Positions 4,590 to 49,796 of a stretch of 64,000 nt of DNA are shown piece after piece; the first letter of the stretch is position 1; every line of letters begins with the position of its first letter. This stretch comes from an uncultured bacterium (GTDB lineage Bacteria; Verrucomicrobiota; Kiritimatiellia; RFP12; UBA1067). Under the pieces are notes generated by a model that saw only the letters and a program-made list of their open reading frames with translations, was not told the origin of the DNA and did no database searches. Location of the stretch: NCBI GenBank assembly GCA_902779565.1, contig CACZCD010000001.1, forward strand, positions 3,929 to 67,928, in the 5' to 3' direction. The position numbers and the translations under genes were made by a program.

Positions 4590-4624
4590 AGTCTCCTTGA
4601 CGGTCAGTTGGTAGTTGATAGTTG

Positions 4625-4782
4625 GTGGTTGATTTGTCTCACGCAGAGGCGCAGAGGACGCAGAGAGAAATTTCGGAGTTGTGACTCCGCTCAAAAAATA
4701 ACATGGATTCCACCTTTCCACTTTTCCACCTTTCCACCATTCCACCTTTCCACTTTTCCACCTTTCAACCTTTCAACTTTTG
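4625..4782. repeat. Tandem-repeat hairpin element copy 1: CA-rich arm (4625-4655) and purine arm (4708-4782) around a spacer carrying GCAGAGG x3 and a small hairpin
   Basis: Plus-strand arms: gttggtagttgatagttggtggttg ... ccacctttccacttttccacctttccaccattccacctttccacttttccacctttcaacctttcaac. The arms are imperfectly complementary (GTTGAWAG units pair with CTTTCMAC units). Confidence 0.8.
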
Positions 4783-6045
4783 GATGAGGAACACCTTGTC
4801 GCCCACGCGGCAGCGCGGGGCCGGGAACGTCACCCACGTCCCCTTCTCGGCCACCTCCGGTACTTCCTCGTCGCGCCGGAGCGAAGCGATGCGAAACTCC
4901 TGTACGCCCGTTGTGGGACCTTGGATCTGGACGAGATCACCCACTTTTACGGCGGCATCCTGAATCTTCACCTGCGCAATCTCCGCCTTCAGGAAATAGT
5001 CGATCACGATGCCGACGTGGCGTTTCACCTCCTGCGCGGACGAATTGGGCGTATCAGTGAACTGGTCCACTCCCGGACGCCCAAAGTAGAGGCCGCGCGA
5101 ATATTCGCGATGGAAGAAACGCCGCGTCCGCGCGACCAGACGCTCCGCCTGCTCGGGCGTATACGTGCCGGCCAACACAGCATCCACCGCTTCGCGGTAA
5201 GCGCTCACCACTGTCATCACATATTCGGCGTTGCGGGCGCGTCCCTCGATCTTGAACGACGCGATGCCCGCCGCCATCAGCTGATCGATGAACGGCAGCG
5301 AACAGAGGTCCTTCGCCGAGAGCACGGTGTGGGGCGTCACAAAGAACTCCGTCTCCGAATCATGCACGGGCTGCCCCTCGCCATCCGAATAGAGATCAAC
5401 GGCCTTTAGAAGAAACGTGCGCCGGCAGGGCTGGCGACACTCGCCGCGGTTCGCGCTGCAGCCGTAGGCGTCGTGGCTCATCATGCAGCGTCCGCTCTCC
5501 GCCACGCATTGCGCGCCATGCACGAAGCACTCCACCTCCAGGCCGCCTGCCGCCACGATGCGCTTCACCTCGTCAAGCGTGCATTCGCGCGCCAGCACCA
5601 CGCGCGAAGCGCCCTGCTCCTTCACGAAGCGCACCGCCGCCGAATTCGAGATGCTCATCTGCGTGGAGACGTGAAACCGCACGCCGTGTTTTCGGCACAG
5701 CGCCACCACGCCCCAGTCCGCAACGATGAACGCATCCACATACGGCTTCGCCGCCATGATCATCCGCTCTACTTTCTCCGTCTCATCCTCAAACAGGATC
5801 GCGTTGAGCGTGAGATAACGCTTCACCCGCCGCGGTGCCGCTTCGCACCGCCGCTGGATCTCCGGCAGGTCTTCCACCGTGAAGTTCACGCCCGCGCGCT
5901 GGCGCATGTTGAATTCGTCCAAGCCGAAATAGACGGCGTCCGCCCCCGCATCAATTGCCGCCTGAAGGCAGGTCATGTCACCGGCCGGCGCCAAGATCTC
6001 AGGCGCCTTCAGGCCGCAACCAACATCGCGCACATCCTGCTGCAT
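4765..6045 (-). CDS. Peptidase U32 family protein (collagenase-like / YhbU-YegQ family)
   Basis: KAPEILAPAGD N-terminal motif, Cys-rich central segment and U32 C-terminal domain. The start is taken at MQQDVRD (6045). The C-terminal codons ...KLKG and the stop are supplied by the repeat element (aaagttgaaaggttga). Confidence 0.8.
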   Translation of the reverse strand: MQQDVRDVGCGLKAPEILAPAGDMTCLQAAIDAGADAVYFGLDEFNMRQRAGVNFTVEDLPEIQRRCEAAPRRVKRYLTLNAILFEDETEKVERMIMAAKPYVDAFIVADWGVVALCRKHGVRFHVSTQMSISNSAAVRFVKEQGASRVVLARECTLDEVKRIVAAGGLEVECFVHGAQCVAESGRCMMSHDAYGCSANRGECRQPCRRTFLLKAVDLYSDGEGQPVHDSETEFFVTPHTVLSAKDLCSLPFIDQLMAAGIASFKIEGRARNAEYVMTVVSAYREAVDAVLAGTYTPEQAERLVARTRRFFHREYSRGLYFGRPGVDQFTDTPNSSAQEVKRHVGIVIDYFLKAEIAQVKIQDAAVKVGDLVQIQGPTTGVQEFRIASLRRDEEVPEVAEKGTWVTFPAPRCRVGDKVFLIQKLKG

Positions 6046-7436: not shown

Positions 7437-7660
7437 GGCGCTTGTGCTTGTGTTTGTTGCCAGTCCGTGGCCGCGTCCGTTGTAGCCCGTTGCCTGTCCG
7501 TTAGGCGTCCGTATTAGCCCGTGTGAAGTCCGTAATCTGCCTGAAGCCTGTCCATGATATGTCCGTGGGTAGTCCGTGGTGTGTCCGTCTATGGGAGGGC
7601 GAGTGTCCTCGTGAAACGCCTCAAGTCCGTAATGCGTCCTTCTCGTATCCGTGTGAAGAA
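7437..7660 (+). repeat. Array R1: about 17 copies of GTCCGT (variants GCCCGT, GTCCTC, ATCCGT) phased at 10-12 bp (mean ~11 bp). It is an inverted copy of block B of R2.
   Basis: ccagtccgtgg ccgcgtccgtt gtagcccgttg cctgtccgtta ggcgtccgtat ... The first ~60 bp (ggcgcttgtgcttgtgtttgttgccagtccgtggccgcgtccgtt) is the near-exact reverse complement of 23225-23285. Confidence 0.85.
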
Positions 7661-22975: not shown

Positions 22976-23004
22976 GCTGCACACGTATTTGCAACGTGAT
23001 TACC

Positions 23005-23290
23005 GAAGACATCCAACGGGCTTCTGACGGACACACCACGGACAGGTTACGGTCTTGCCAAGGACATCTGACGGACGGCACACGGACACACTACGGACAA
23101 GTTACGGACTGGCCACGGACGCGCAACAGACTTCATACGGGCTTAGAACGGACGAGCCACGGACAAAATACGGGCGGAACACGGACTAAAACGGACTTCT
23201 GATGGACAGCATACGGACGGATCACGGGCTACAAACGGACGCGGCCACGGACTGGCAACAAACACAAGCACAAGCGCCTTTCCCGCGGCG
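23005..23290 (+). repeat. Array R2 block B: about 22 copies of ACGGAC (variants ACGGGC, ATGGAC) phased at ~11 bp. The terminal ~60 bp is the inverted duplicate of the R1 start.
   Basis: ctgacggacac accacggacag gttacggtctt ... ctacggacaag ttacggactgg ccacggacgcg ... aaacggacgcggccacggactggcaacaaacacaagcacaagcgcc. Confidence 0.85.
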
Positions 23291-25346: not shown

Positions 25347-25360
25347 GTTAATCCTTTTTT

Positions 25361-25430
25361 AGTTGATAGTTGATAATTGATGATTGGTGGTCTAGTCTCA
25401 ACCTTTCCACTTTTCCACCTTCCCACTTTT
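25361..25430. repeat. Tandem-repeat hairpin element copy 2, in the 5'UTR of the esterase gene
   Basis: Plus strand: agttgatagttgataattgatgattggtgg ... ctcaacctttccacttttccaccttcccactttt. The arrangement is the same as copy 1, with the CA-rich arm ending 8 nt before the AAAAAAGGA RBS on the mRNA. Confidence 0.8.
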
Positions 25431-25434
25431 AACT

Positions 25435-26571
25435 TCAGATAACACCTTTGATGTACCGTTCCTTCACCGTGCGCCAAAGCACCAGGCAGAACGCCGAAAG
25501 CGGGATGGCGAGCAGGAGCCCCAGGAGCGACTTGAACACCGCGCTCCAGAACAGGAACGAGAAGATCACGCCCGCAAAGCCAAGTCCTGTGCGCTGGCCC
25601 TGGATGAGCGGCGTGATGGCATAGCCGTCCGCGATCTGGCCGGCCGCCCATACGCTCGACACACCGATGAGCCGCAACAGACTGCCACCATCGCCGAAGA
25701 AGGCGAGCAGGAGCGCAAGCGGAAGGCAGATTACAGTACCGAGGAGCGGCACAAGGTTGATCGCTCCCAGCGCAAAGCCGATCACGAAGCCGTAGGGCAG
25801 CCCCACGAGAACGAATCCGAGGCCGTAGAGCACGCCTTCCACAAGGCAGATGATCACCTGCCGCTGGAAAAAGGAGACGATGATGTCCGTGAACGTATCG
25901 ATCTGATCCGCCACAAACCCGCGCGTCTCCTCCTTCAGGAACGGCATCTGCCGCACACAGTCCTCGCCGCGCAGCGCCGGCTTCATCAGGAAGTACACGA
26001 AGAAGATCATCGTCACAACCCACCCGACAAGACCCATGAGGTACTTCACCACACTGAAGCTCACCTTCACCGCCTTTCCGCCGTACTGCGCGCCGAGCTG
26101 GGAGAGGATATCGTGCGAGAACTGCGCGGGATCCGTGAAGAACAGAAGCGCGGAGTCCGGCACGCCGAGCTTCACAAGCCCCGCATGAAGCCCCGGATGC
26201 TGGGCCTGGAACCATTCGCTCGCGCGCGTCACAATCGTTGGCGCAGCGGTGATGAAGGCCGAGAGCTGCTCGATCAGCATCGCGCCCGTGAGCCACAGCA
26301 CGAGACCCGCCGGCACAAGGACCGTGAGGGACATCGCCACCAGCGCCAGGGTCGGGTTGTGCAACCGCTTCAGGAACCATCCGTAGTACGGCTTGAAGAA
26401 CATCGAAAGGAGCAATCCCATGATGACCGGTGTCAGCGCGGGCGCCGTCAGGTTCAGGAGCTTCAACACAAACCAGCCAATACCGAGCGCAAAGGCGACC
26501 ACCAGCGCCACCGCCAGAGACGTGACGCCCGCCGCCGCCCATTTCTTCTGCCGATTGCTCAAGTCAATCAC
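25435..26571 (-). CDS. AI-2E family transporter (PerM/UPF0118)
   Basis: 378 aa, about 8 TM segments, with the typical AI-2E topology and conserved segments. Confidence 0.7.
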   Translation of the reverse strand: MIDLSNRQKKWAAAGVTSLAVALVVAFALGIGWFVLKLLNLTAPALTPVIMGLLLSMFFKPYYGWFLKRLHNPTLALVAMSLTVLVPAGLVLWLTGAMLIEQLSAFITAAPTIVTRASEWFQAQHPGLHAGLVKLGVPDSALLFFTDPAQFSHDILSQLGAQYGGKAVKVSFSVVKYLMGLVGWVVTMIFFVYFLMKPALRGEDCVRQMPFLKEETRGFVADQIDTFTDIIVSFFQRQVIICLVEGVLYGLGFVLVGLPYGFVIGFALGAINLVPLLGTVICLPLALLLAFFGDGGSLLRLIGVSSVWAAGQIADGYAITPLIQGQRTGLGFAGVIFSFLFWSAVFKSLLGLLLAIPLSAFCLVLWRTVKERYIKGVI

Positions 26572-33792: not shown

Positions 33793-36700
33793 TTAGGGCT
33801 TTACGCGCACGGTTTCAGCGGTTGAGTGTGCCGTGAACTCGGGCGCGTACATGCATTGGATCGTCGCAAGCCCGCCGATAAACACGCCGCGCTGCTGCAC
33901 GCGATACGACGTCTCAAGAACGAACACGCCCTTGTTGAGACAGTCGATGTAGTAGTGCGTGGCCGTATCCTTCGTGGACTGATAATAACCCACGCCATCG
34001 CGCCAGCGGTACGACGACAGCACATCCTCCGGCTCCGCGCACGCAGGCCGCTCGTCAGAGAGATGCACGAACTCGTACGTGCGGTCGCTCGTGATCTCAA
34101 GCCGCGCCACGATCTCGTCGCCCGGCTCAAGCACGCCATCGATCGACGTGAGCCGTGTCCCATCCGCGCCCTTCACCTTCTTGTAGTACTTCTTCTCCAC
34201 CCGCAACTCCTTCGGCTCGTGCGCGCGTACCTTAAGGACATCCTCAAAGTACGTCCAGTGGACGCCGCCCCACGCAACGCCCTTCTCGCCCGCACCCGTA
34301 AACGTGATCTCGCCCATCTCGGGCCTGATCTGCGCCGCGGCGTAGCGGTGCGAATACATCCCCGTGCCCGCCTCGGCGTTCGCCACCGGCACCTTCTCGC
34401 CCGCCAGCGTGACCTCGGCCAGCTTGTCGCCCGCCAGCAGATCCGTCCCGCCGCCCAGAAGGAGCGCATAGATCGCGTCCACCGTCGCGGCGGTCGTCGT
34501 CCAATCCTGCGTCTGCTTCTGCTTCAGGAGCCACACGTTGCAGGCATCTGCGCTCTCCTCGTCGCGCGTCACCTCGCGGAACGCCTCAATGATCAGCGCC
34601 TGCGTCGAGACGGGCGCGGCGAACACGCTGCACGAGAAGAAGGACGACCTCTTCCAGTATAGGCCGAGTTCCTCTGAAAGGACGCCCCGCTCCTTGATCG
34701 ACGCCATGATCTTCCGCGCGAACTTTTCCTCGCCCATGCGCTTCAAGGCGATGGCCGCCAGCGCCTGCGAGCTGAGGCCGAAGTCCGTCCACTCCTCCTT
34801 GAGATGCTTGACGAAGAGCTTTGCCGGCTGCGCATCCTTCGCGGCGGCGACGCCCTTGAACGTATGGAGGTAGAGCCAGCGAATGTCGAAGCCATCCACA
34901 TGGAACTTGATGCCCAGTCTCTTCGCCTCCTTGAGCCGCTCCTTCACATCCTCAGAAACGAACGCGTCAAGTGCTTCCACCGCCTCCGCAAAGAAGTCGG
35001 GATACGTCCTCTGCGCCAGGAAGTTGAGCCGCGCGAACCCCGTCAGGATATAGAGCGAGATGCCGGGCGCGGACGGCCCGCCCGGGAACCACGGCCAGAG
35101 TCCGCCGCCACACCGCGCGAGTCGCAACTTCTCAAGGCACTTTTCCTGCTCACCCGCCAGACGGTCGGCGGCGAAGAGTTCACCAAGCCGCGCGCGGGCT
35201 GCGCTTTCGTGCGCCGCCTCACGGACCCACGGCGTCGCTTCAAGCGCAATCGCCTTGAGGTGTTCATCCGTCTCAAGCGGGCTCTTCAGCGTTTCGCCGC
35301 CCGCCGCCTTCCACGCGTCGAACGTGGCGCGGATGCGCGGATCGGCGTTTGCGATGTACTGTCCCAGCGCGTTCGCATAGTAGCGGCTGAACGTCTGCTC
35401 GCAGCATTCGTGCGGGAACTCCATCAGGTACGGAAGCGACAACACCGCGTACCACGCCGGACGCGACACGGCGCGCACCGTGAGATCCTGATGGCGGACC
35501 GTCTCAGACCCCTTGCTCGCCAGCAGGTTCTCGAACCGAAACGATTTCGTCGCCGCGCCACGCACGTTGAGCTGCACGGCCTCGCGCACCATCACGCGGC
35601 GCGCCAGCACCGGCAGCACGCCCTCTTCGCCGTCCGCGAACGCCGCGCCCTTCGCGCGCGCGACATATTTGAGATAGCCGCACCCATCCGGGATCCGCAA
35701 CGGGAACTCGAACGTCTTCGATTCGTGCGGAACCAGGTTGAAAGGTTGAAAGGTTGAAGCGTTGAAAGGTTGAAGCGTTGACGGGTTGGCATTTTCAGCA
35801 GAACTTTTCAACTCTTCAACCTTCAACTCTACAACTCCCTGCTGCGGCGCGTCCTCGGTGTTCGTCACCTTGACGGCAAAGAAGAAGTTGTCACCTTCGC
35901 GCACGAAACGCGGTGCGTTCGGTTCGCACATGAGCGGCTTCGTCGTCACGATCTCGTTGTTGCGGAAGATGTCGCCGCGAAGCGCGTTGTCATGCGCGAC
36001 CATCAGGAACTTCCAGCCCGTGAGCGCGTCCGGCACCGTGAACGAGAACGACACCTTCCCGTCCGCATCCGTCTCCAGGTTCGGGAAGAAGAACGCCGTC
36101 TCCTTCAGGTTCGTGCGCGGCGGCGCATCCGGTTCCTTCTCGGACTTCGCGGATGGTGCAGCACCACACACCGCCACCGTTTCTTCTTCCAAGACGCACC
36201 TTTCATTCATCACGCCCATCCCGGCCGCGGCGGACTTGCAGACCATGCCGCCCCGTCTTCGCAGTCTGCCATACTCGTACAGCGACCGCCACGAAGGCCA
36301 TCGGAAGTTGGAGAACCACGTGGACTTGCTTGGGAACCGACCGCCGAGATCCATCAGCTCCGTGGTCGTATTCTGGATTGCCGGACTTCCGAGCCAGCGC
36401 GTCCAGGGCGTAAAGTGACTTGAAAAACCGAGCGACACATCATGCCATTTGTACGCATCGAGCGAACGGTCGTACATGAAAGCGAGCACTTCCGCAGGGC
36501 CCGACACCTTGAACGTCCATATTTCCTTGTTGCCGGGATTGAGCTTGCTCGTCAGGTGCTCCGCCGTGATATCCAGATACTTGTTGTCCCACGGCACATT
36601 CACGCAGGTGCTGTCGCAATAGATGCGGTTCTCGCGCACGAAGGTGGTCTCAATCCTCACTTCGCCGCGATGCTCCTCCTGGATCGGCAGCTCGAAAAAC

Positions 36701-39663
36701 CAAGATGGGCTCTCCCCGCCGATCGTCTTTTCAAGAAGCGTCTTCCGGTTGTTCGTCACCTTCACGCGGCACCAGCCCGTCGCATAGCCCGAGCCCCAAT
36801 AGGCGCGGAGCGTCTCGCCGACCTTCACCATCCCCCTCTCCGAGCAGAAGTAGGTCGGCACGGCAATTCCAAGGCCTTTCGCGGACGGATCGAACACGAA
36901 GACTTCTGCGTAGTCCTTCACCGTCTTGCCGTTCGGATCCTTCGCTTCGAACATGAGACGATAGGCACCGACACCGAGCTTGATCTCGCCCGTCCACTTC
37001 TCCGGCTTGTCCGTGGAGATATCGAGCGACAGCACCTCTTCGCCCATCTTCCACGTCTTCCAGTCCCAAGGACCTTTCACGTTCCGGTCAGAGCCGTAGC
37101 GGCCCTCACCCGCCGGCTTGCGAACCGGCCTTTCGGGTGCGACGAGCCGATAGGCCTTCAGCGTGCCCTTGACCGGCAGCGGCGCACCTGCAAGCGAGTT
37201 GATCGTCACACGCGGCGCAACAGGCACGTCAGGCGTCTGCCATTTTTCGCCGGTCCACACGCTTGCGCGCCAGGCCACGGTTCCGATCTCGAACGACGAC
37301 TCCGCCGTGTGCTCCTCGCCCGTTTCGTCCGTCACCTCCGCCGTCACCGAAAACTCGAACGACGGATCGCCCGACAGGTCGGCTTTAGGAGAAGCGACGG
37401 GTGTGAACGTCACCTCGAAGACGCCGTTGCCGTCCGTCTTCGCCTCTCCCTTCCCGACAAAGTTTTCACCGTCATCGTCTGACGTGCCACCGAACCATCG
37501 CCACCAGCTGGGATAGCGCGTGGCGCGCTCCACCGACCATTTGACCTTCGCGTTCTGCACGGGAAGCCCCGAGTAGGTGAGCGCCTTGCCCGTCACCGTC
37601 ACCGGCACGCCCAGCGTCCCCTGCTCCGGCGCCGCCTCGAACGAGACGGTGAACTTCGGCCGCTTGTACTCCTCCACGTTCACGCGCTTCTGCGATTCGC
37701 CTGTCTTGCCATCCTTCAGGACGACGCGCGCCATCACCGTGTATTCACCGGTAAGCCGATCCGTCGGCGCCGTGAAAGTGTAGGTGAACGATCCCCACTT
37801 GTTCGTGCGGAGGCGTTTCGCGGCGACTTCCTTATCGTTCGGATCGCTGAATGTCACGAGTACCAGTTCATCCGGCAGCGTGTGGAAATCCTGCGTATGC
37901 GGATTCGCGTGGTAGGCGATGCCCTTCACCCGGATCTCCTGACCCGGACGGTAGATCGCACGGTCGGTGAAGAGATCCATGTATTCGTACTTCGGCGCTT
38001 CGTACGATTCGCTGCCCGATCCCTCGCTGCCGAGGGAAAGCACTTCGTCATTCTCCTTGATGACGCGAACGTTCCGCATCAGCGCGTTATAGTCGTCCTT
38101 CTTCGCCACGTCGGCGACAAAACGTCCATCCTTGTCCGTCACATACGTCTCGCGCAGCACCAGAACGCGTCCGCCTTGGGGCGGGTACCCCCAAAGCTCC
38201 ACCTTCGCGTCCGCGACCGTCTCACCGGACTCCGCACGATAGACCGTGCCGCCGAACGCGCCGTTGCCCGTCTCAAGGGCGAGCGCCAGCGATGTGACGG
38301 TGACATACTGCGCGAACAGCGGCTGCTTGTCCGAACCGAAGGCCTCGTTCCCGGCCGCGTAGAGGACATAGTGTCCAACCTTCAGATCCGACGGCGCCGT
38401 GAACTTGAACGTCTGCTCGGTGTAGTCCGGCTTCAGCGGAAGCACTTCCTTCCACTCCTTGACCGGGCGGCGCGACAGGTACTTGTTCTTCATCTCATCG
38501 CGAGCGCCCCCCCGTCCGGCCGAGCCCATCGAGGTGTCATTGACGAGGTCCTGGAACGAAACCGGCACAAGGCGGAAGTGGACTTCCGTGAGGTTCTTCG
38601 CGCGAACCTCAATCTCCGGCCAGGGTGCACACCAGTTGCGTTCAATCTTGCACGCCAGCTTCTTCCCCTCGATGGCGGCGACAATGTTGGCGCATTTCTT
38701 CCCCCCCGGCGAATCGGACCACTTCGCCTCGTATTCAGCGGCAAGATCATGCGCCGCGAGAAGATTGGTTTTACAGAGCTGCTCCGCCTTCAGTGCCGCC
38801 GCGTAGGCGACGGCTTCGGTTTTCCCCTCGTACCGCTTGATGAAATTATCCAGAAACGCCCCGAACACGGCTTCGCGCGCCTTCTCTGGCTGGTTGTCGA
38901 ACGAACGGATGTACTCGGCGGCGTCCAGCTCAGCCATCGCGAGCGCATCGGCGTTTCCGTCTCCTTGATGAAAATCAATCAGCCGTCGATAGAGCGCGAG
39001 ACCCTTTTCAAGCGTCTTGTCCGGAATCGTCTCGCCGTAAAAGCTGATGGCATCCCGCACGGCGAAATCGTAGAGTGTCGGCACATACGTTTTCGGATAG
39101 TCGCCACGATGGAAAATCTCCGTCCAGTCCGCGAGCATCATCCCCTTCAGCTCTTCGGCATAAGCGAACACCTTCGCGAACTGCATCTCGAGCGTGTCGG
39201 CGATCTTCTCGGGCGACCATGGCGGCATCTTGTCGGCGGCGGCGGCCTCGTCCAGCTTCGTCGGCGCGGCGCCGCCCCAGCGCCACCGGCGCGAGTTCTC
39301 CTGGTAGGTGTGGGCGAGGTGGAGCTGGAGGACGGCCTGAAGCGGCGCGGGCTGCGCATCAACCGACGCGGCAAAGGCCGGCAGCCAATTCTGCGGCAGT
39401 TCGTCTCGAAACTCCTTCATCGCCTGCTCGCGGACAAGAAAGGCCCGTGCGGCATCAGGCCAACGCGCGGCGGCGACGGCCTCGCGCGCAATCTCCTCCA
39501 CCTTGTTTGTGACGGTGCGCGGCAGTCCGTTTTCCTGCGCCTCCTCGACGGCCTTCCAGGCCTTGGCGAAATTGTACGCTCCCATGACAGCTCCCTTCAG
39601 GGTGACGGAGGCGGCAAGAATCGCCAGCGCCCATACGGTTCTTTTTCGGCTTATTAGACTCAT
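33793..39663 (-). CDS. Bacterial alpha-2-macroglobulin family protein (1956 aa)
   Basis: Signal peptide (MSLISRKRTVWALAILAAS), multiple MG-like domains, a thioester-region motif ...MEFPHECCEQTFS (CxEQ), and an A2M receptor-binding-like C-terminus. It contains an in-frame repeat-element insertion. Confidence 0.8.
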   Translation of the reverse strand: MSLISRKRTVWALAILAASVTLKGAVMGAYNFAKAWKAVEEAQENGLPRTVTNKVEEIAREAVAAARWPDAARAFLVREQAMKEFRDELPQNWLPAFAASVDAQPAPLQAVLQLHLAHTYQENSRRWRWGGAAPTKLDEAAAADKMPPWSPEKIADTLEMQFAKVFAYAEELKGMMLADWTEIFHRGDYPKTYVPTLYDFAVRDAISFYGETIPDKTLEKGLALYRRLIDFHQGDGNADALAMAELDAAEYIRSFDNQPEKAREAVFGAFLDNFIKRYEGKTEAVAYAAALKAEQLCKTNLLAAHDLAAEYEAKWSDSPGGKKCANIVAAIEGKKLACKIERNWCAPWPEIEVRAKNLTEVHFRLVPVSFQDLVNDTSMGSAGRGGARDEMKNKYLSRRPVKEWKEVLPLKPDYTEQTFKFTAPSDLKVGHYVLYAAGNEAFGSDKQPLFAQYVTVTSLALALETGNGAFGGTVYRAESGETVADAKVELWGYPPQGGRVLVLRETYVTDKDGRFVADVAKKDDYNALMRNVRVIKENDEVLSLGSEGSGSESYEAPKYEYMDLFTDRAIYRPGQEIRVKGIAYHANPHTQDFHTLPDELVLVTFSDPNDKEVAAKRLRTNKWGSFTYTFTAPTDRLTGEYTVMARVVLKDGKTGESQKRVNVEEYKRPKFTVSFEAAPEQGTLGVPVTVTGKALTYSGLPVQNAKVKWSVERATRYPSWWRWFGGTSDDDGENFVGKGEAKTDGNGVFEVTFTPVASPKADLSGDPSFEFSVTAEVTDETGEEHTAESSFEIGTVAWRASVWTGEKWQTPDVPVAPRVTINSLAGAPLPVKGTLKAYRLVAPERPVRKPAGEGRYGSDRNVKGPWDWKTWKMGEEVLSLDISTDKPEKWTGEIKLGVGAYRLMFEAKDPNGKTVKDYAEVFVFDPSAKGLGIAVPTYFCSERGMVKVGETLRAYWGSGYATGWCRVKVTNNRKTLLEKTIGGESPSWFFELPIQEEHRGEVRIETTFVRENRIYCDSTCVNVPWDNKYLDITAEHLTSKLNPGNKEIWTFKVSGPAEVLAFMYDRSLDAYKWHDVSLGFSSHFTPWTRWLGSPAIQNTTTELMDLGGRFPSKSTWFSNFRWPSWRSLYEYGRLRRRGGMVCKSAAAGMGVMNERCVLEEETVAVCGAAPSAKSEKEPDAPPRTNLKETAFFFPNLETDADGKVSFSFTVPDALTGWKFLMVAHDNALRGDIFRNNEIVTTKPLMCEPNAPRFVREGDNFFFAVKVTNTEDAPQQGVVELKVEELKSSAENANPSTLQPFNASTFQPFNLVPHESKTFEFPLRIPDGCGYLKYVARAKGAAFADGEEGVLPVLARRVMVREAVQLNVRGAATKSFRFENLLASKGSETVRHQDLTVRAVSRPAWYAVLSLPYLMEFPHECCEQTFSRYYANALGQYIANADPRIRATFDAWKAAGGETLKSPLETDEHLKAIALEATPWVREAAHESAARARLGELFAADRLAGEQEKCLEKLRLARCGGGLWPWFPGGPSAPGISLYILTGFARLNFLAQRTYPDFFAEAVEALDAFVSEDVKERLKEAKRLGIKFHVDGFDIRWLYLHTFKGVAAAKDAQPAKLFVKHLKEEWTDFGLSSQALAAIALKRMGEEKFARKIMASIKERGVLSEELGLYWKRSSFFSCSVFAAPVSTQALIIEAFREVTRDEESADACNVWLLKQKQTQDWTTTAATVDAIYALLLGGGTDLLAGDKLAEVTLAGEKVPVANAEAGTGMYSHRYAAAQIRPEMGEITFTGAGEKGVAWGGVHWTYFEDVLKVRAHEPKELRVEKKYYKKVKGADGTRLTSIDGVLEPGDEIVARLEITSDRTYEFVHLSDERPACAEPEDVLSSYRWRDGVGYYQSTKDTATHYYIDCLNKGVFVLETSYRVQQRGVFIGGLATIQCMYAPEFTAHSTAETVRVKP
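35736..35838. repeat. Tandem-repeat hairpin element copy 3, in-frame inside the A2M coding sequence
   Basis: Plus strand: ggttgaaaggttgaaaggttgaagcgttgaaaggttgaagcgttgacgggttgg - spacer - cttttcaactcttcaaccttcaactctacaactcc. It encodes ...ENANPSTLQPFNASTFQPFNL... Confidence 0.8.
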
Positions 39664-39759
39664 GCACGCTATTATACAGAAATGCCGCCCGTCAGGCAAT
39701 GGCCTCCCACGCGCTATATGTTGACCTTATTCCCCGGCTGTCAACACTGTTGTGGGGTT

Positions 39760-43523: not shown

Positions 43524-45440
43524 TCACAACGCGTCTGTCATGAATGTATGCGCCACCGTCCAAGGCGCGCTCTTGATCCGTTTCATGCGCATCAAAAGCG
43601 AAAGGCGGTGGCGTTCAAGCTCCGCATCGCCCCGTGCCGGCAGTTCGCCGAGACGGCGTCGGATCGCATCGCCCCATAGCCGCCGCAGAAAATCCTCAAG
43701 AATGCGCGCTGGGTCCAACTCGGAAAGCGATGCGCGCTCCCGCGACAGGAACACGCCCTCCAAAAGCGCACCATCCGCCGCGGAAAGCGTCCCGCGGAGT
43801 TCCGCCATCGCCTGCTCGTTCCCGCGCGTCTCCTGCACATAGGCGTGAACGAACCCGCACGTCAACGCATGCTGGAAAATCGTGTCGGGCGCATAGGATT
43901 CCAGCATCTCCGTCAGCTGCCCATCCGGTCCGTTTCCGAACAGAAACTCCATGAGTGCCATCTCTGTCCGAGGCGGCGGATTGTTCTCCGGAGCCGCAGC
44001 GTCTTCCGAGGGTTGAGAGTTGGGAGTTGAGGGTTGAGGGCTTGCCGCGCCGAAGCCTTCGGCGGAGGCGGGTTGCGTACTTCCTCTTCCCTCTTCCCTC
44101 TTCCCTCTTCCCTCTTCCCTCTTCCCTTTCTCTAGATCCTCCTCAAGGGCGGCGACCGGTATCTTCAGAAGTGTGGAAGCCTCCTGCAGCAAACTGGCGC
44201 GCATGACCGCGCTCGAACTGCACCTGACCAACGCCAAGACAGCGCGCGCCGCGCGGGAGATCGCATCGTAGGAGTCAGGTGTCTGCTCCATCGCGCGGGC
44301 GATGCGTACTTGAAAGGCGACCAGCGACTCAGCCGAATCAAGGCAGGCCTGAAACGCCGCCGGACCTTTCGTGCGAAGCAGAGAATCTGGGTCTTCGCCC
44401 GGCGGAAGACTTGCCACGCGCACCAACAATCCGGCGGCCAGCATCTCGCCGCCCGTGCGAATCGCCGCCTTCTGTCCAGCGGCATCGGCGTCAAAGACCA
44501 GCACGGCGGCATCGGCGACCTTCTTCAGGATCTGGACATGCTCCTTCGTGAAGGCCGTCCCCTGCGACGCGATCGCACGGGAGAATCCCGCCGCATGGCA
44601 GCGGATCACATCGATCTGCCCTTCGCAGACGATGGCCTCGCGAACGGGCTTGGCGTTGGCGATCTTCCCCGCCGCAAGATCGAACGCATAGAGAACATCC
44701 GACTTCCGGAAGATGAGCGTCTCGGGCGAATTGACGTACTTGCCGCCGCGCATCTTCGTCTTATCCGTCTCAAGCGTCCGTCCCGAGAACGCGATCACGC
44801 GTCCAGACCGGTCACGGATCGAGAACATGACGCGTCCGGCGAACGGCGAGTACCAGCGTCCGCCCGGATACTTCGGCGGACGCAGCACGCCGGCCGCCTC
44901 AAGCTCTTCGGTGGTGAAATGATGCTTCTCCGCCCATTTGAGCATCGCCTCGGCCTGCTGCGGCGCGTAGCCGATCTGGAACTGCTCCGCGATCTCGTCC
45001 GGGATGTCGCGCGACGCGAGATAGTTGCGCGCACGCGCCGCCTCAGCGGCCGTCTTGAGGCAACGCCGGTAGAACGCCGCCAACTCGGCGTGGAGCACAA
45101 GTTGGCGCTTGCGCGCGGCCGCTTGCGGATCGCTATTCGTCTCCTCGATGGTGATGTTCGCCGCCGCCGCCAGCTTCTTCGCCGCCTCCACGAAGCCCAG
45201 CCCCTCGTACTTCATCACGAACTTGATCACGTCGCCGGACTCGCCGCAACCGAAGCAGTGGTAGAATCCCTTCGCCGGCTGGATGTTGAAACTCGGCGTC
45301 TTTTCATGATGAAACGGGCAGCAGGCCTTGTACGACCCACCTGCCCGTTTCACTTGGATCCCGTAGCTGGCGATCAAATCTGCAAGGTCCGTACGGGCCT
45401 TGATCTCTTCGATCGTCTGCTCCGAAATGCCGAAGGCCAT
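43524..45440 (-). CDS. dnaG: DNA primase
   Basis: Zinc-ribbon CPFHHEKTPSFNIQPAKGFYHCFGCGESGD, TOPRIM region (EGQIDVIRCHAAG...DADAAGQKA). 638 aa including a low-complexity insertion derived from a repeat element. Confidence 0.9.
   Translation of the reverse strand: MAFGISEQTIEEIKARTDLADLIASYGIQVKRAGGSYKACCPFHHEKTPSFNIQPAKGFYHCFGCGESGDVIKFVMKYEGLGFVEAAKKLAAAANITIEETNSDPQAAARKRQLVLHAELAAFYRRCLKTAAEAARARNYLASRDIPDEIAEQFQIGYAPQQAEAMLKWAEKHHFTTEELEAAGVLRPPKYPGGRWYSPFAGRVMFSIRDRSGRVIAFSGRTLETDKTKMRGGKYVNSPETLIFRKSDVLYAFDLAAGKIANAKPVREAIVCEGQIDVIRCHAAGFSRAIASQGTAFTKEHVQILKKVADAAVLVFDADAAGQKAAIRTGGEMLAAGLLVRVASLPPGEDPDSLLRTKGPAAFQACLDSAESLVAFQVRIARAMEQTPDSYDAISRAARAVLALVRCSSSAVMRASLLQEASTLLKIPVAALEEDLEKGKREEGRGKREEGRGSTQPASAEGFGAASPQPSTPNSQPSEDAAAPENNPPPRTEMALMEFLFGNGPDGQLTEMLESYAPDTIFQHALTCGFVHAYVQETRGNEQAMAELRGTLSAADGALLEGVFLSRERASLSELDPARILEDFLRRLWGDAIRRRLGELPARGDAELERHRLSLLMRMKRIKSAPWTVAHTFMTDAL
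44010..44125. repeat. Tandem-repeat hairpin element copy 4, in-frame inside dnaG
   Basis: Plus strand: gggttgagagttgggagttgagggttgaggg - spacer with gccgaagccttcggc hairpin - (cctcttc)x5. It encodes ...KGKREEGRGKREEGRGSTQPASAEGFGAASPQPSTPNSQPS... Confidence 0.8.
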
Positions 45441-45458
45441 CGCTGACCTCTCTCGGCC

Positions 45459-49796
<4,338 letters not shown>

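What the first reader, a model, noticed from the sequence alone, without database searches (positions are those of the whole stretch)
44010..44125. Hairpin element inserted in-frame in the essential primase gene dnaG
Within dnaG the plus strand shows gggttgagagttgggagttgagggttgaggg, then a spacer containing the perfect small hairpin gccgaagccttcggc, then (cctcttc)x5. On the coding strand this becomes (AGGGAAG)n...(CCCTCAA)n. Translation gives KGKREEGRGKREEGRGST...SPQPSTPNSQPS in the linker between the primase catalytic core and the C-terminal helicase-interaction domain. The 7-nt DNA unit times three gives a 7-aa protein repeat. Tolerated insertion of a structured repetitive element into an essential replication gene is unusual. 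It could also create an mRNA structure affecting dnaG translation, and dnaG expression is classically kept low.
Basis: partly seen in the sequence, partly recalled or inferred. Interest (0 to 1): 0.65.

Follow-up and report, generated by a model that had tools for sequence, protein, structure and literature searches.

The report
Repeat element inside primase linker
The flexible linker of the essential DNA primase in this gut Kiritimatiellia bacterium is built from fast-slipping 7-base repeats, and a small palindromic repeat that also occurs in other genes is embedded in them; the gene tolerates this because the stretch is translated into harmless disordered peptide.

Summary
dnaG (43524-45440, minus strand, 638 aa, intact) carries, in mRNA order, (GGGAAGA)x6.4, a 32-nt GC-rich palindromic core, then (CCCTCAA)x4.7. 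All are in frame and encode aa 438-477. AlphaFold models this stretch as a coil between the primase core and the C-terminal helical domain.

It is two things, not one hairpin element.

(1) The 7-nt arrays are a resident, hypermutable linker. All close relatives (76-96% identity) have arrays there, with different units and copy numbers. Distant homologues have ordinary linkers of similar length, so there is no net insertion. A near-identical strain differs by one substitution in 1759 flanking nt but by +14 nt in the array. Three of ten sequenced alleles are out of frame.

(2) The core is a dispersed REP-like element. The identical 34-mer (core plus 2 nt) occurs at six non-dnaG metagenome loci. 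A sister core (30/30 nt) sits in both another dnaG allele and a NYN-domain gene, splitting one repeat unit exactly.

The long array-to-array hairpin is not conserved, so a regulatory mRNA structure is not supported. The closest analogues are Rickettsia palindromic elements, REPs and cyanobacterial STRR arrays. It is a new variant of a known kind, of moderate interest.

The parts
43524..45440 (-). dnaG (DNA primase) coding sequence, 638 aa, intact. It follows rpoC after an 18-nt gap.
   Evidence: ORF. Pfam Zn_ribbon_DnaG, DNAG_N and Toprim. Foldseek hits to the DnaG structures 2au3 and 4edg. The identical protein is on 3 contigs.
44083..44127 (-). Array 1. In mRNA sense it is (GGGAAGA)n, 6.4 perfect copies, followed by one 6-nt unit. 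It encodes GKREEGRGKREEGRG. The G3N4 spacing fits a G-quadruplex motif on the sense strand (not tested).
   Evidence: TRF: period 7, 100% matches, score 90. No such array in 30 shuffles. Copy number differs in L089 (+2 units), L082, L084 and L086.
44073..44082 (-). Junction between array 1 and the core (mRNA AAGTACGCAA). It ends in ...CAA, the same pre-insertion context (CTCAA^CC) seen at other copies of the core.
   Evidence: Read from the sequence, compared with the junctions in L096, L098 and L100.
44041..44072 (-). 32-nt GC-rich palindromic core. In mRNA sense it is CCCGCCTCCGCCGAAGGCTTCGGCGCGGCAAG and encodes PASAEGFGAAS. It is a dispersed REP-like element.
   Evidence: The identical 34-mer (this core plus the 2 nt at 44039-44040) is at 6 non-dnaG metagenome loci, L093, L094 and L096-L099. 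The same peptide in the same frame sits in 9 clusters of a NYN/YacP-like protein. RNA hairpin -15.2 kcal/mol.
44048..44064 (.). It is the centre of the core.
   Evidence: the repeat finder inverted repeat I1. On its own it is at chance frequency.
44008..44040 (-). Array 2. In mRNA sense it is (CCCTCAA / CTCAACY)n, 4.7 imperfect copies, encoding PQPSTPNSQPS. The opposite orientation would read TGA stops.
   Evidence: TRF. The unit type differs in close relatives: 8-mers AACTCGGA in L082 and L090, CCCCTCA in L085, absent in L086.
44010..44129 (-). Repeat-encoded linker peptide, aa 438-477, between the conserved blocks ALEEDLEK and SEDAAAPENNPPP.
   Evidence: Alignment of about 115 homologues. 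pLDDT <50 and coil for residues 443-481.
35735..35837 (-). Related paired arrays (element C): (AGGTTGAA)x5 ... (TTCAACTC)x4.6. They lie in frame inside a 1968-aa alpha-2-macroglobulin-like gene and encode ...VVELKVEELKSSAENANPSTLQPFNASTFQPFN...
   Evidence: Fold z-scores -3.9 and -3.5.
4606..4774 (-). Related paired arrays (element A). They fill the spacer between a peptidase U32 gene (stop 4765-4767) and a 5'-nucleotidase gene (ATG 4589). In mRNA order: (AAAGGTGG)n, spacer, (ATCAACT)n, AAGGAG, ATG.
25360..25430 (-). Related paired arrays (element B). They fill the spacer between an AI-2E transporter gene (stop 25435-25437) and a SASA esterase gene (ATG 25346).

Best explanation
The feature is selfish or neutral repetitive DNA of two layers, tolerated in the disordered tether of DnaG.

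Layer 1 is the arrays. In this clade of gut and rumen Kiritimatiellia the linker between the primase core and the C-terminal domain is encoded by tandem arrays of 7-8-nt units. On the mRNA these are GA-rich (GGGAAGA, GGGGAAY) followed by CA-rich (CTCAACC, AACTCGGA, CCCCTCA). The arrays grow, shrink and change unit, most simply by slipped-strand mispairing, much faster than point substitution. Selection keeps only alleles whose total length preserves the frame. It also allows only the orientation that reads as hydrophilic G/K/R/E and S/T/P/Q/N peptide, because the reverse orientation of the CA array contains TGA in every third unit.

Layer 2 is the core. A 30-32-nt GC-rich palindromic element (family consensus YCCGCCTYCGCC(G)AAGGCTWCGGCG(C)GRCAAG) has been inserted into the arrays, cleanly and without target duplication. 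The same element sits at other loci, both in genes and between them.

The extended hairpin that the two arrays can form in this particular allele is a by-product, not a selected RNA structure.

Shown: the anatomy, the hypervariability, the dispersal of the core, the clean junctions and the disorder of the encoded peptide. Inferred: slippage as the mechanism, transposition (possibly by an HUH/RAYT-like enzyme) as the way the core spreads, and neutrality.
For: (a) The linker is variable in all homologues. Repeat-derived peptides are confined to the clusters of about 76% identity or more. L001 (72%) and more distant ones have non-repetitive linkers of similar length.

(b) The DNA of 10 alleles has different units and copy numbers between invariant anchors, with no indels anywhere else in the gene. 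Q and L089 differ by 1 substitution in 1759 flanking nt but by +14 nt in array 1.

(c) The frame is under selection. Seven of 10 DNA alleles are in frame, as are about 41 of 44 close protein clusters. Q carries a 6-nt imperfect unit where L082 has none, which keeps the frame.

(d) The core is dispersed. A 26-nt probe found 8 metagenome loci, 6 of them not dnaG, and all share an identical 34-mer. It is in frame as PASAEGFGAAS in a NYN/YacP-like ORF (L096) and at the C-terminus of a thioesterase-like ORF (L093). It is reversed but in frame in L097. It is intergenic between Flp-pilin-like genes in L094, L098 and L099.

(e) A sister core, TCCGCCTTCGCCAAGGCTACGGCGGACAAG, is 30/30 identical in the dnaG of L087 and the NYN gene of L100. 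In L087 it splits one GGAATGG unit exactly (GGA^core^ATGG). In L100 and L096 the insertion point is CTCAA^CC. L101 is an 'empty' NYN allele with arrays only.

(f) The NYN loop shows presence/absence polymorphism for three core types on a background of CA arrays.

(g) Period-7/8 arrays are about 25 times denser in Kiritimatiellia loci (6.4 per 100 kb) than in dnaG loci of other phyla (0.25 per 100 kb). Three more paired arrays lie in this window.

(h) The encoded stretch is modelled as coil with pLDDT <50.

(i) No Rfam family matches, and the fold is not conserved in orthologous linkers.
Against: - No second copy of the core lies in the 64-kb window. Multi-copy status within this one genome is therefore not shown, and the other copies come from metagenome contigs of unknown genome.
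- No transposase was identified.
- 'Clean insertion' rests on three or four junctions, and for the Q-type core it is ambiguous because the core and the flank both start with CCC.
- The array-to-array fold in this allele is better than shuffles (z = -2.2 with dinucleotide shuffles, -4.0 with mononucleotide shuffles), so a lineage-specific structural role is not excluded.
- Three out-of-frame alleles (L089, L090, L091) are unexpected for an essential gene. They may be assembly or strain-mixture artefacts, or they may mean something is missing from this account.
- That all four elements in the window are co-oriented with transcription hints at an RNA-level role that this account does not explain.
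Confidence: 0.68

Rival explanations
1. It is a purely intrinsic low-complexity linker. Everything between the anchors, including the palindrome, arose in place by slippage and drift, and no mobile or dispersed element is involved.
For: The linker is variable and low-complexity in many DnaG homologues, for example the PT-rich linker of P0115. There is no net gain in length. No other copy of the core lies in the 64-kb window. The small palindrome alone is at chance frequency.
Against: An identical 34-mer occurs at six unrelated loci. A 30/30-identical sister core occurs in two different genes with different flanking arrays. The L088 linker shares 47 nt at 96% identity with a site 2.8 kb downstream. 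Independent origin of such identities is not credible.
Confidence: 0.12
2. It is a cis-acting structure in the dnaG mRNA. Either the imperfect 45-bp hairpin between the arrays or an RNA G-quadruplex in (GGGAAGA)n slows ribosomes between domains or lowers primase expression.
For: The predicted MFE is -53 kcal/mol with z = -2.2 to -4.0. (GGGAAGA)n fits the G3N1-7 quadruplex pattern, read from the sequence. The GA array is retained in many alleles.
Against: The arms are not complementary in L082 and L090. One arm is absent in L085 and in L086. Fold z-scores of the orthologous linkers are +1.0, +1.3 and -0.2. There is no covariation and no Rfam match. Distant homologues do without any repeat.
Confidence: 0.07
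3. It is a contingency or recoding locus. Slippage of a unit that is not a multiple of 3 switches dnaG between a full-length form and a split form (primase core plus a separately made C-terminal domain), or the frame is restored by ribosomal or transcriptional slippage.
For: Three of 10 alleles are out of frame with an intact downstream frame: L089 and L090 (+14 nt) and L091. L091, and probably L089, come from large-k assemblies. A 145-aa ORF for the C-terminal domain is called in L089 and L090. (GGGGAAT)n arrays offer SD-like GGGGA plus ATG in all three frames, read from the sequences.
Against: dnaG is essential, and by established knowledge of DnaG the C-terminal domain tethers the primase to DnaB. 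More than 90% of close clusters are in frame, and a compensating 6-nt unit shows selection for frame. The out-of-frame alleles fall into both wrong frames, which does not look like a programmed shift. Perfect arrays of 56-59 nt exceed the SPAdes maximum k, and mixed strains can give chimeric copy numbers.
Confidence: 0.06
4. It is an assembly or sequencing artefact in the window.
For: Tandem repeats are error-prone in short-read assemblies, and some related contigs are out of frame.
Against: The exact 638-aa protein is on 3 contigs, and two near-identical clusters come from other assemblies. The array is 45 nt, shorter than a read and shorter than the usual maximum k. The same architecture is present in independent studies from JGI and ENA.
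Confidence: 0.02

Closest known systems
Rickettsia palindromic elements (RPEs): palindromic repeats inserted in frame in protein-coding genes. Basis: my own knowledge of Ogata et al. 2000. RPE is also a search term held by PMC1166351 and by the prokaryotic MITE review PMC10969869 (titles and abstracts only; neither paper was read).
   Same: A small palindromic dispersed repeat sits in frame inside ORFs, including housekeeping genes. It is translated into a hydrophilic segment at a permissive site. Orthologues show presence or absence.
   Different: RPEs are 100-150 bp, occur in an obligate intracellular alphaproteobacterium, and are not tied to tandem arrays. Here the core is only 30-32 nt, the phylum is Kiritimatiellota, and the core lies within hypermutable 7-8-nt arrays that make up most of the foreign peptide.
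REP / REPIN elements mobilised by RAYT (IS200/IS605-like HUH) transposases (PMC2817692, PMC3116915, PMC3733652, abstracts only).
   Same: It is a GC-rich imperfect palindrome within the 20-40-nt size range, dispersed, and forms a stable hairpin. Insertion without target duplication at a short specific sequence (CTCAA^CC) is what HUH enzymes do; this last point is from my own knowledge.
   Different: REPs are by definition extragenic and usually carry a terminal GTAG or CGTC tag. Here several copies are inside ORFs. A terminal tag is not evident (GTAG is internal in the sister core only). No RAYT gene was looked for or found. Copy number per genome is unknown.
Cyanobacterial STRR (short tandemly repeated repetitive) heptanucleotide arrays. 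Basis: my own knowledge of Mazel et al. 1990. Use of STRR for fingerprinting is stated in the abstract of PMC5088731.
   Same: Tandem arrays of 7-nt units are dispersed through the genome, mostly between genes, are specific to a lineage and have no established function.
   Different: The phylum and the units differ (CCCCAGT, TTGGTCA, CAACAGT in STRR). Here the arrays often come as a GA-type/CA-type pair co-oriented with transcription, lie directly 5' of ribosome-binding sites, and also occur in frame in coding regions.
Simple-sequence contingency loci, for example the CTCTT pentamer in Neisseria opa genes and tetranucleotide repeats in Haemophilus. Basis: my own knowledge.
   Same: A coding tandem repeat has a unit that is not a multiple of three. 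Copy number varies between strains, and out-of-frame alleles exist.
   Different: Contingency loci are in dispensable surface or host-interaction genes and switch them on and off. dnaG is essential, in-frame alleles predominate strongly, and compensation is seen.
Mycobacterial interspersed repetitive units (MIRUs). Basis: my own knowledge of Supply et al. 1997. This comparison applies to the intergenic elements A and B.
   Same: Repeats fill the spacers between genes of an operon, in one orientation relative to translation, and abut the stop and start codons.
   Different: MIRUs are 40-100-bp units, not arrays of 7-8-nt units.

Membership tests
Bacterial DnaG primase | N-terminal CHC2 zinc ribbon | tested here: met
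   Pfam PF01807, E = 6e-37, residues 6-101.
Bacterial DnaG primase | RNA-polymerase domain (DNAG_N plus Toprim) | tested here: met
   PF08275 at 1e-34 and PF13155 at 1e-17. Foldseek hits to 2au3, 4edg and 1dd9 with E from 1e-21 to 1e-16.
Bacterial DnaG primase | C-terminal helicase (DnaB)-binding domain | tested here: inconclusive
   No Pfam hit for residues 486-638 even at E <= 10. AlphaFold gives a confident all-helical domain at 491-633, and the domain is conserved in all homologues. Its identity as the DnaB-binding domain is inferred from position only.
In-frame palindromic repeat elements (RPE-like) | The same sequence is present at several unrelated loci | tested here: met
   An identical 34-mer at 6 non-dnaG loci. 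The sister core is 30/30 identical in dnaG (L087) and a NYN gene (L100). Whether the copies are in the same genome is not shown.
In-frame palindromic repeat elements (RPE-like) | Inserted in frame in ORFs, with orthologues that lack it | tested here: met
   dnaG has the core in Q, L082, L084 and L095 and lacks it in L085, L086 and L091. The NYN gene has it in L096 and L100 and lacks it in L101, with 9 + 11 + 5 clusters carrying cores.
In-frame palindromic repeat elements (RPE-like) | Palindromic, hairpin-forming sequence | tested here: met
   8+8-nt perfect arms. RNA MFE -15.2 and -18.6 kcal/mol on the two strands, although z is only about -1 given the GC content.
REP / REPIN-RAYT | Extragenic location | tested here: not met
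   Four of the seven distinct contexts are inside ORFs.
REP / REPIN-RAYT | Terminal GTAG or CGTC tag (PMC3733652) | tested here: inconclusive
   Neither tetranucleotide is at an end of the Q-type core. The sister core has an internal GTAG on its reverse strand. Read from the sequences.
REP / REPIN-RAYT | A cognate RAYT / IS200-like transposase in the genome, and high copy number | not tested
   Only 64 kb of the genome is available, and the ORFs were not screened for Y1 transposases.
Simple-sequence contingency locus | Intragenic tandem repeat with a unit that is not a multiple of 3, and copy number varying between strains | tested here: met
   The unit is 7 nt. The distances between anchors are 145, 159, 172, 186, 193, 106, 118, 217 and 119 nt.
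Simple-sequence contingency locus | Reversible on/off switching of a dispensable gene | tested here: not met
   By established knowledge the gene is the essential primase. More than 90% of close clusters are in frame and a compensating 6-nt unit is present. The 3 out-of-frame assemblies remain unexplained.
Conserved cis-regulatory RNA structure | The structure is conserved, with covariation, in orthologues | tested here: not met
   Fold z-scores are -2.2 for Q against +1.0 (L082), +1.3 (L085) and -0.2 (L086). Arms are replaced or missing. Rfam finds nothing.
Cyanobacterial STRR | Dispersed tandem heptanucleotide arrays | tested here: met
   6.4 arrays of period 7/8 per 100 kb in Kiritimatiellia loci against 0.25 per 100 kb in controls.
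Cyanobacterial STRR | Cyanobacterial lineage and the STRR1-3 unit sequences | tested here: not met
   The organism is a Kiritimatiellia MAG. The units are GGGAAGA, CTCAACC, AGGTGGAA and similar.

The most novel reading that the evidence does not exclude
Kiritimatiellia may carry an undescribed two-component repeat system. Hypermutable 7-8-nt arrays, co-oriented with transcription, would fill spacers between genes just 5' of ribosome-binding sites and also fill disordered protein loops. They would serve as landing pads for a family of 30-32-nt palindromic elements that insert at CTCAA^CC without target duplication, which would suggest an HUH/RAYT-like single-strand transposition. In the essential dnaG gene this would generate naturally occurring frameshift alleles (3 of 10 sequenced). 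That would mean the cells bear a recurrent lethal load, or rescue the frame by recoding, or can live with a split primase.
Probability: 0.2. Interest if true: 0.75.

Novelty: new variant of a known kind. Interest (0 to 1): 0.55.

Why it matters
It shows that an essential replication protein can carry, in its interdomain tether, both a mutational hotspot whose unit length threatens the reading frame and a copy of a dispersed palindromic element. It also gives a natural series of alleles showing what the tether will tolerate. It extends the Rickettsia-type 'selfish DNA inside genes' phenomenon to a free-living gut phylum. It links that phenomenon to short tandem arrays as insertion targets. It points to a lineage-wide class of repeats that is unannotated and will produce spurious ORFs, broken gene calls and contig breaks in Kiritimatiellia MAGs. 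If the frameshifted dnaG alleles are real, they raise a directly testable question about recoding or split primases.

Tried and rejected
- Rfam, on the whole window at gathering threshold and on 43900-44250 at E <= 1: only noise hits (mir-H1, IMES-5, VEGF IRES, all far below threshold).
It returned no relative closer than 72% identity, so it named the class but not the species.
- The core was not found in viral contigs or in PLSDB plasmids.
- Pfam on the C-terminal 153 aa found nothing.
- The homologue search around element C in the alpha-2-macroglobulin gene returned only fragments of 51% identity or less, plus one at 74%. This was enough to see that the segment replaces a variable stretch, but not to trace its history.
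- The idea that the two arrays form a conserved long hairpin was rejected on the orthologue comparison.
- The idea that the small palindrome is significant in itself was rejected on shuffles.
- Spread of the core by gene conversion through flanking array homology is unlikely for L087. There the same core lies in a GGGGAAT array, not a CTCAACC array.
- Literature searches for Kiritimatiellia repeats found nothing relevant.
- The window's ORFs were not screened for a transposase.
Full report
**1. Observation.**
The sequence is as described. On the + strand, 44008-44040 holds 4.7 imperfect copies of GAGGGTT. 44048-44064 is an 8+8-nt perfect palindrome around one base. 44083-44127 holds 6.4 perfect copies of CCTCTTC.

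The region lies inside an intact 638-aa ORF on the minus strand (43524-45440). The ORF translates as ...ALEEDLEKGKREEGRGKREEGRGSTQPASAEGFGAASPQPSTPNSQPSEDAAAPENNPPP.... The protein is a DnaG primase:
- Pfam finds the zinc ribbon at 6-101, DNAG_N at 123-256 and Toprim at 268-355.
- Foldseek matches the DnaG structures 2au3, 4edg and 1dd9.

An AlphaFold model built on 25 homologues puts residues 443-481 in coil with pLDDT <50. This coil lies between helix 429-445 and a confident helical C-terminal domain at 491-633. That the C-terminal domain binds the helicase is inferred from position only, because Pfam finds nothing there.

Perfect 7-nt arrays never arose in 30 dinucleotide shuffles of the window. 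The small palindrome alone is at chance frequency, 14 observed against 13.5 expected. The exact protein occurs on three contigs, and near-identical ones occur in other assemblies. The organism is an uncultured gut or rumen Kiritimatiellia.

**2. The arrays are the linker of a whole clade, and they are hypermutable.**
About 115 DnaG homologues were aligned. The stretch between ALEEDLxK and SEDAAAPENNPPP varies in every one of them.
- Clusters at 72% identity or less have ordinary, non-repetitive linkers with a median of 46 aa.
- Clusters at about 76-96% identity have peptides that are plainly translations of short DNA repeats (GKREEGR, GNGERG, ETRNPKP, STLNSQP), with a median of 33 aa.
- The window has 39 aa.

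So nothing has been added in length. The ordinary linker has been replaced.

The DNA of ten alleles shows this directly:

| Allele | Array 1 | Core | Array 2 |
|---|---|---|---|
| Window and L089 | (GGGAAGA)n | Q-type | (CCCTCAA)n |
| L082, L084, L090 | same as window | same as window | 8-mers (AACTCGGA / AACTCAAA) |
| L085 | absent | absent | (CCCCTCA)5 |
| L086 | (GGGAAGA)8.7 | absent | absent |
| L087 | (GGGGAAY)n | a different core | long AACTCGAA / AACCCGGA arrays |
| L091 | (GGGGAAY)n | absent | (CTCAACC)n |
| L088 (77% identity) | only a short GA-rich remnant | a third spacer type | CAACTCT arrays |

All indels in the gene are in the linker; none are in the flanks of the pairs at 90% identity or more. 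The window and L089 differ by one substitution in 1759 flanking nt, yet by 14 nt (two units) in array 1. Such arrays are a trait of the lineage. Kiritimatiellia loci have 6.4 period-7/8 arrays per 100 kb, against 0.25 per 100 kb in dnaG loci from other phyla.

**3. The frame is under selection, but not perfectly.**
Seven of the ten DNA alleles have the same length class modulo 3. About 41 of 44 close protein clusters are full length. Compared with L082, the window has one extra unit that is 6 nt instead of 7, which preserves the frame.

Three alleles are out of frame, and each keeps an intact downstream frame for the C-terminal domain:
- L089: the window's allele plus two units.
- L090: the L082-type allele plus two units.
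- L091.

These are shown. L090 is a low-coverage SPAdes contig whose perfect array (about 56 nt) exceeds the usual maximum k. L091 is a k141 contig. Strain mixtures could also give chimeric copy numbers. I cannot decide between artefact and real alleles without the reads.

**4. The palindrome belongs to a dispersed element.**
A 26-nt probe from the spacer found eight JGI metagenome contigs, and only two of them are dnaG. All eight share the identical 34-mer CCCGCCTCCGCCGAAGGCTTCGGCGCGGCAAGCC, which is more than the probe required. The contexts are:
- L096: in frame, as ...PQPASAEGFGAASPH..., the same frame as in DnaG, in a loop of a NYN/YacP-like protein.
- L093 (71% GC): in frame at the C-terminus of a thioesterase-like ORF.
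- L097: reversed but in frame.
- L094, L098, L099: between two Flp-pilin-like genes, flanked by CTCAAC arrays.

Homologues of the NYN protein repeat the dnaG story in a second gene:
- Distant homologues have a loop of about 12-15 aa with no repeats.
- Close homologues carry CA-array peptides (PSTLNSQPSTL; 26 clusters).
- On top of that, some carry the PASAEGFGAAS core (9 clusters), a SAFAKATADK core (11 clusters) or a third core (5 clusters).

At the DNA level:
- L101 is an 'empty' allele with (CTCAACC)n only.
- L096 reads CTCAA^[32-nt core]^CC.
- L100 reads CTCAA^[TCCGCCTTCGCCAAGGCTACGGCGGACAAG]^CC.
- That 30-mer is 30/30 identical to the core in the dnaG of L087. There it splits one GGAATGG unit exactly (GGA^core^ATGG), with no duplication and no loss.

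The two cores are variants of one family. The same core lies in arrays of unrelated unit sequence, so spread by homologous conversion through the flanks is unlikely. Insertion is the simpler reading; this is an inference. In L088, 47 nt of the linker recur at 96% identity 2.8 kb downstream. The core is absent from viral contigs and from plasmids, and no second copy lies in the 64-kb window.

**5. The long hairpin and the regulatory idea.**
In this allele the arrays pair at 5 of 7 positions. The 136-nt mRNA segment folds to -53 kcal/mol, with z = -2.2 against dinucleotide shuffles and z = -4.0 against mononucleotide shuffles. Orthologous linkers do not fold better than shuffles: z = +1.0 for L082, +1.3 for L085 and -0.2 for L086. 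Their arms are replaced or missing. Rfam finds nothing. A conserved cis-regulatory structure is therefore not supported. A quadruplex in (GGGAAGA)n is possible on sequence grounds but was not tested.

**6. Why this orientation.**
Read in the opposite sense, the CA array (TTGAGGG)n contains TGA. A 7-nt unit passes through all three frames every three units, so any array of three or more units would stop translation. The observed sense gives only G/K/R/E and S/T/P/Q/N residues, which suit a disordered tether. This follows from the sequence.

**7. Context in the window.**
Three more paired arrays have the same layout and the same orientation relative to their genes.
- Element A (4606-4774) fills the spacer between a peptidase U32 gene and a 5'-nucleotidase gene.
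- Element B (25360-25430) fills the spacer between an AI-2E transporter gene and a SASA esterase gene.
- In both, the CA array ends just before the Shine-Dalgarno sequence and the ATG.
- The same placement is seen in L002, L004, L005 and L041.
- Element C (35735-35837) is in frame in an alpha-2-macroglobulin-like gene. It occupies a segment that is variable in homologues, and a 74%-identical fragment has a different repeat there.

**8. Verdict.**
The unit of insertion is the 30-32-nt palindromic core, not the whole 120-nt block. The arrays are the clade's own hypermutable linker. The hairpin between the arrays and the proposed effect on translation are not supported.

The closest precedents are:
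- Rickettsia palindromic elements, for in-frame palindromic repeats.
- REP/RAYT elements, for size, palindromy and insertion without target duplication. A transposase, a terminal tag and high copy number are untested or not met.
- Cyanobacterial STRR arrays.
- Simple-sequence contingency loci, which share the mechanism but not the biology.

I rate it a new variant of a known kind, with interest 0.55. The frameshifted alleles and the array-targeted insertion are the parts that could raise that score.

Noticed in passing
window 4606-4774 and 25360-25430; also L002:12229-12267, L004:1893-1928, L005:11912-11937, L041:11926-11963: CA-rich 7-9-nt arrays (ATCAACT, ACCAACT, TTCAACTT, CAACCCTCT) end directly 5' of the Shine-Dalgarno sequence and ATG of the downstream gene, in sense orientation. 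In the window they are preceded by a GA-rich (AAAGGTGG)n array that starts at the stop codon of the upstream gene. They could be unstructured leader or standby elements; their function is unknown.
   Followed up: partly
window 35735-35837 (gene 33793-39699, minus strand): Paired 8-nt arrays, (AGGTTGAA)5 and (TTCAACTC)4.6, are nearly perfectly complementary. They lie in frame in a 1968-aa alpha-2-macroglobulin-like gene and replace a segment that is variable in homologues. A 74%-identical fragment (P0152) has a different repeat (GHPGQLGQPGHL) at the same place.
   Followed up: partly
window 23000-23260 (+) and 7456-7588 (opposite orientation): There are about 22 copies of ACGGAC at a strict 11-nt period in a roughly 700-nt intergenic region downstream of an AT-rich, promoter-like stretch, and a second shorter array of the reverse complement. 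Each unit contains GGA, as in CsrA/RsmA-binding sponge RNAs, and the 11-nt period is close to one DNA helical turn. No Rfam family matches.
   Followed up: no
window 45441-45458: dnaG follows rpoB-rpoC with an 18-nt gap, and this order is conserved in relatives (L081, L086, L087). It differs from the rpsU-dnaG-rpoD arrangement of E. coli.
   Followed up: no
L096, L100, L101 and proteins P0241-P0360: A loop of a NYN/YacP-like protein is a second hotspot. It carries CA arrays plus at least three different palindromic cores (PASAEGFGAAS, SAFAKATADK, GTTGVSPV...GQDARCP), with presence or absence varying among close homologues.
   Followed up: yes
L088:2187-2330 and L088:5069-5115; L088:2980-3066 and 5134-5202: The dnaG linker of L088 carries a third spacer type (AACGGCTCGCGGGGACGCTCGCCCTCCCAAC, peptide TARGDARPP) that recurs 2.8 kb downstream. 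Two intergenic sites in that locus are foldback-like pairs of GT-type and CA-type arrays.
   Followed up: partly
L087:11308-11390 and L091:3446-3500: (GGGGAAT)n arrays in some dnaG alleles place an SD-like GGGGA about 7 nt upstream of an ATG in all three frames. In principle this allows internal initiation of the C-terminal domain whatever the frame.
   Followed up: no
window 45466-45494 (3' end of rpoC): A 9-nt in-frame repeat (GAAGAGGCG x3.2 in mRNA sense) encodes the acidic C-terminal tail of RpoC. It is conserved in L082-L087.
   Followed up: no
L094, L098, L099: Between two tandem Flp-pilin-like genes, the reverse complement of the CA array, (GTTGAGC)n, supplies the apparent TTG start and the upstream region of the second pilin gene. 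The palindromic core lies next to it.
   Followed up: no
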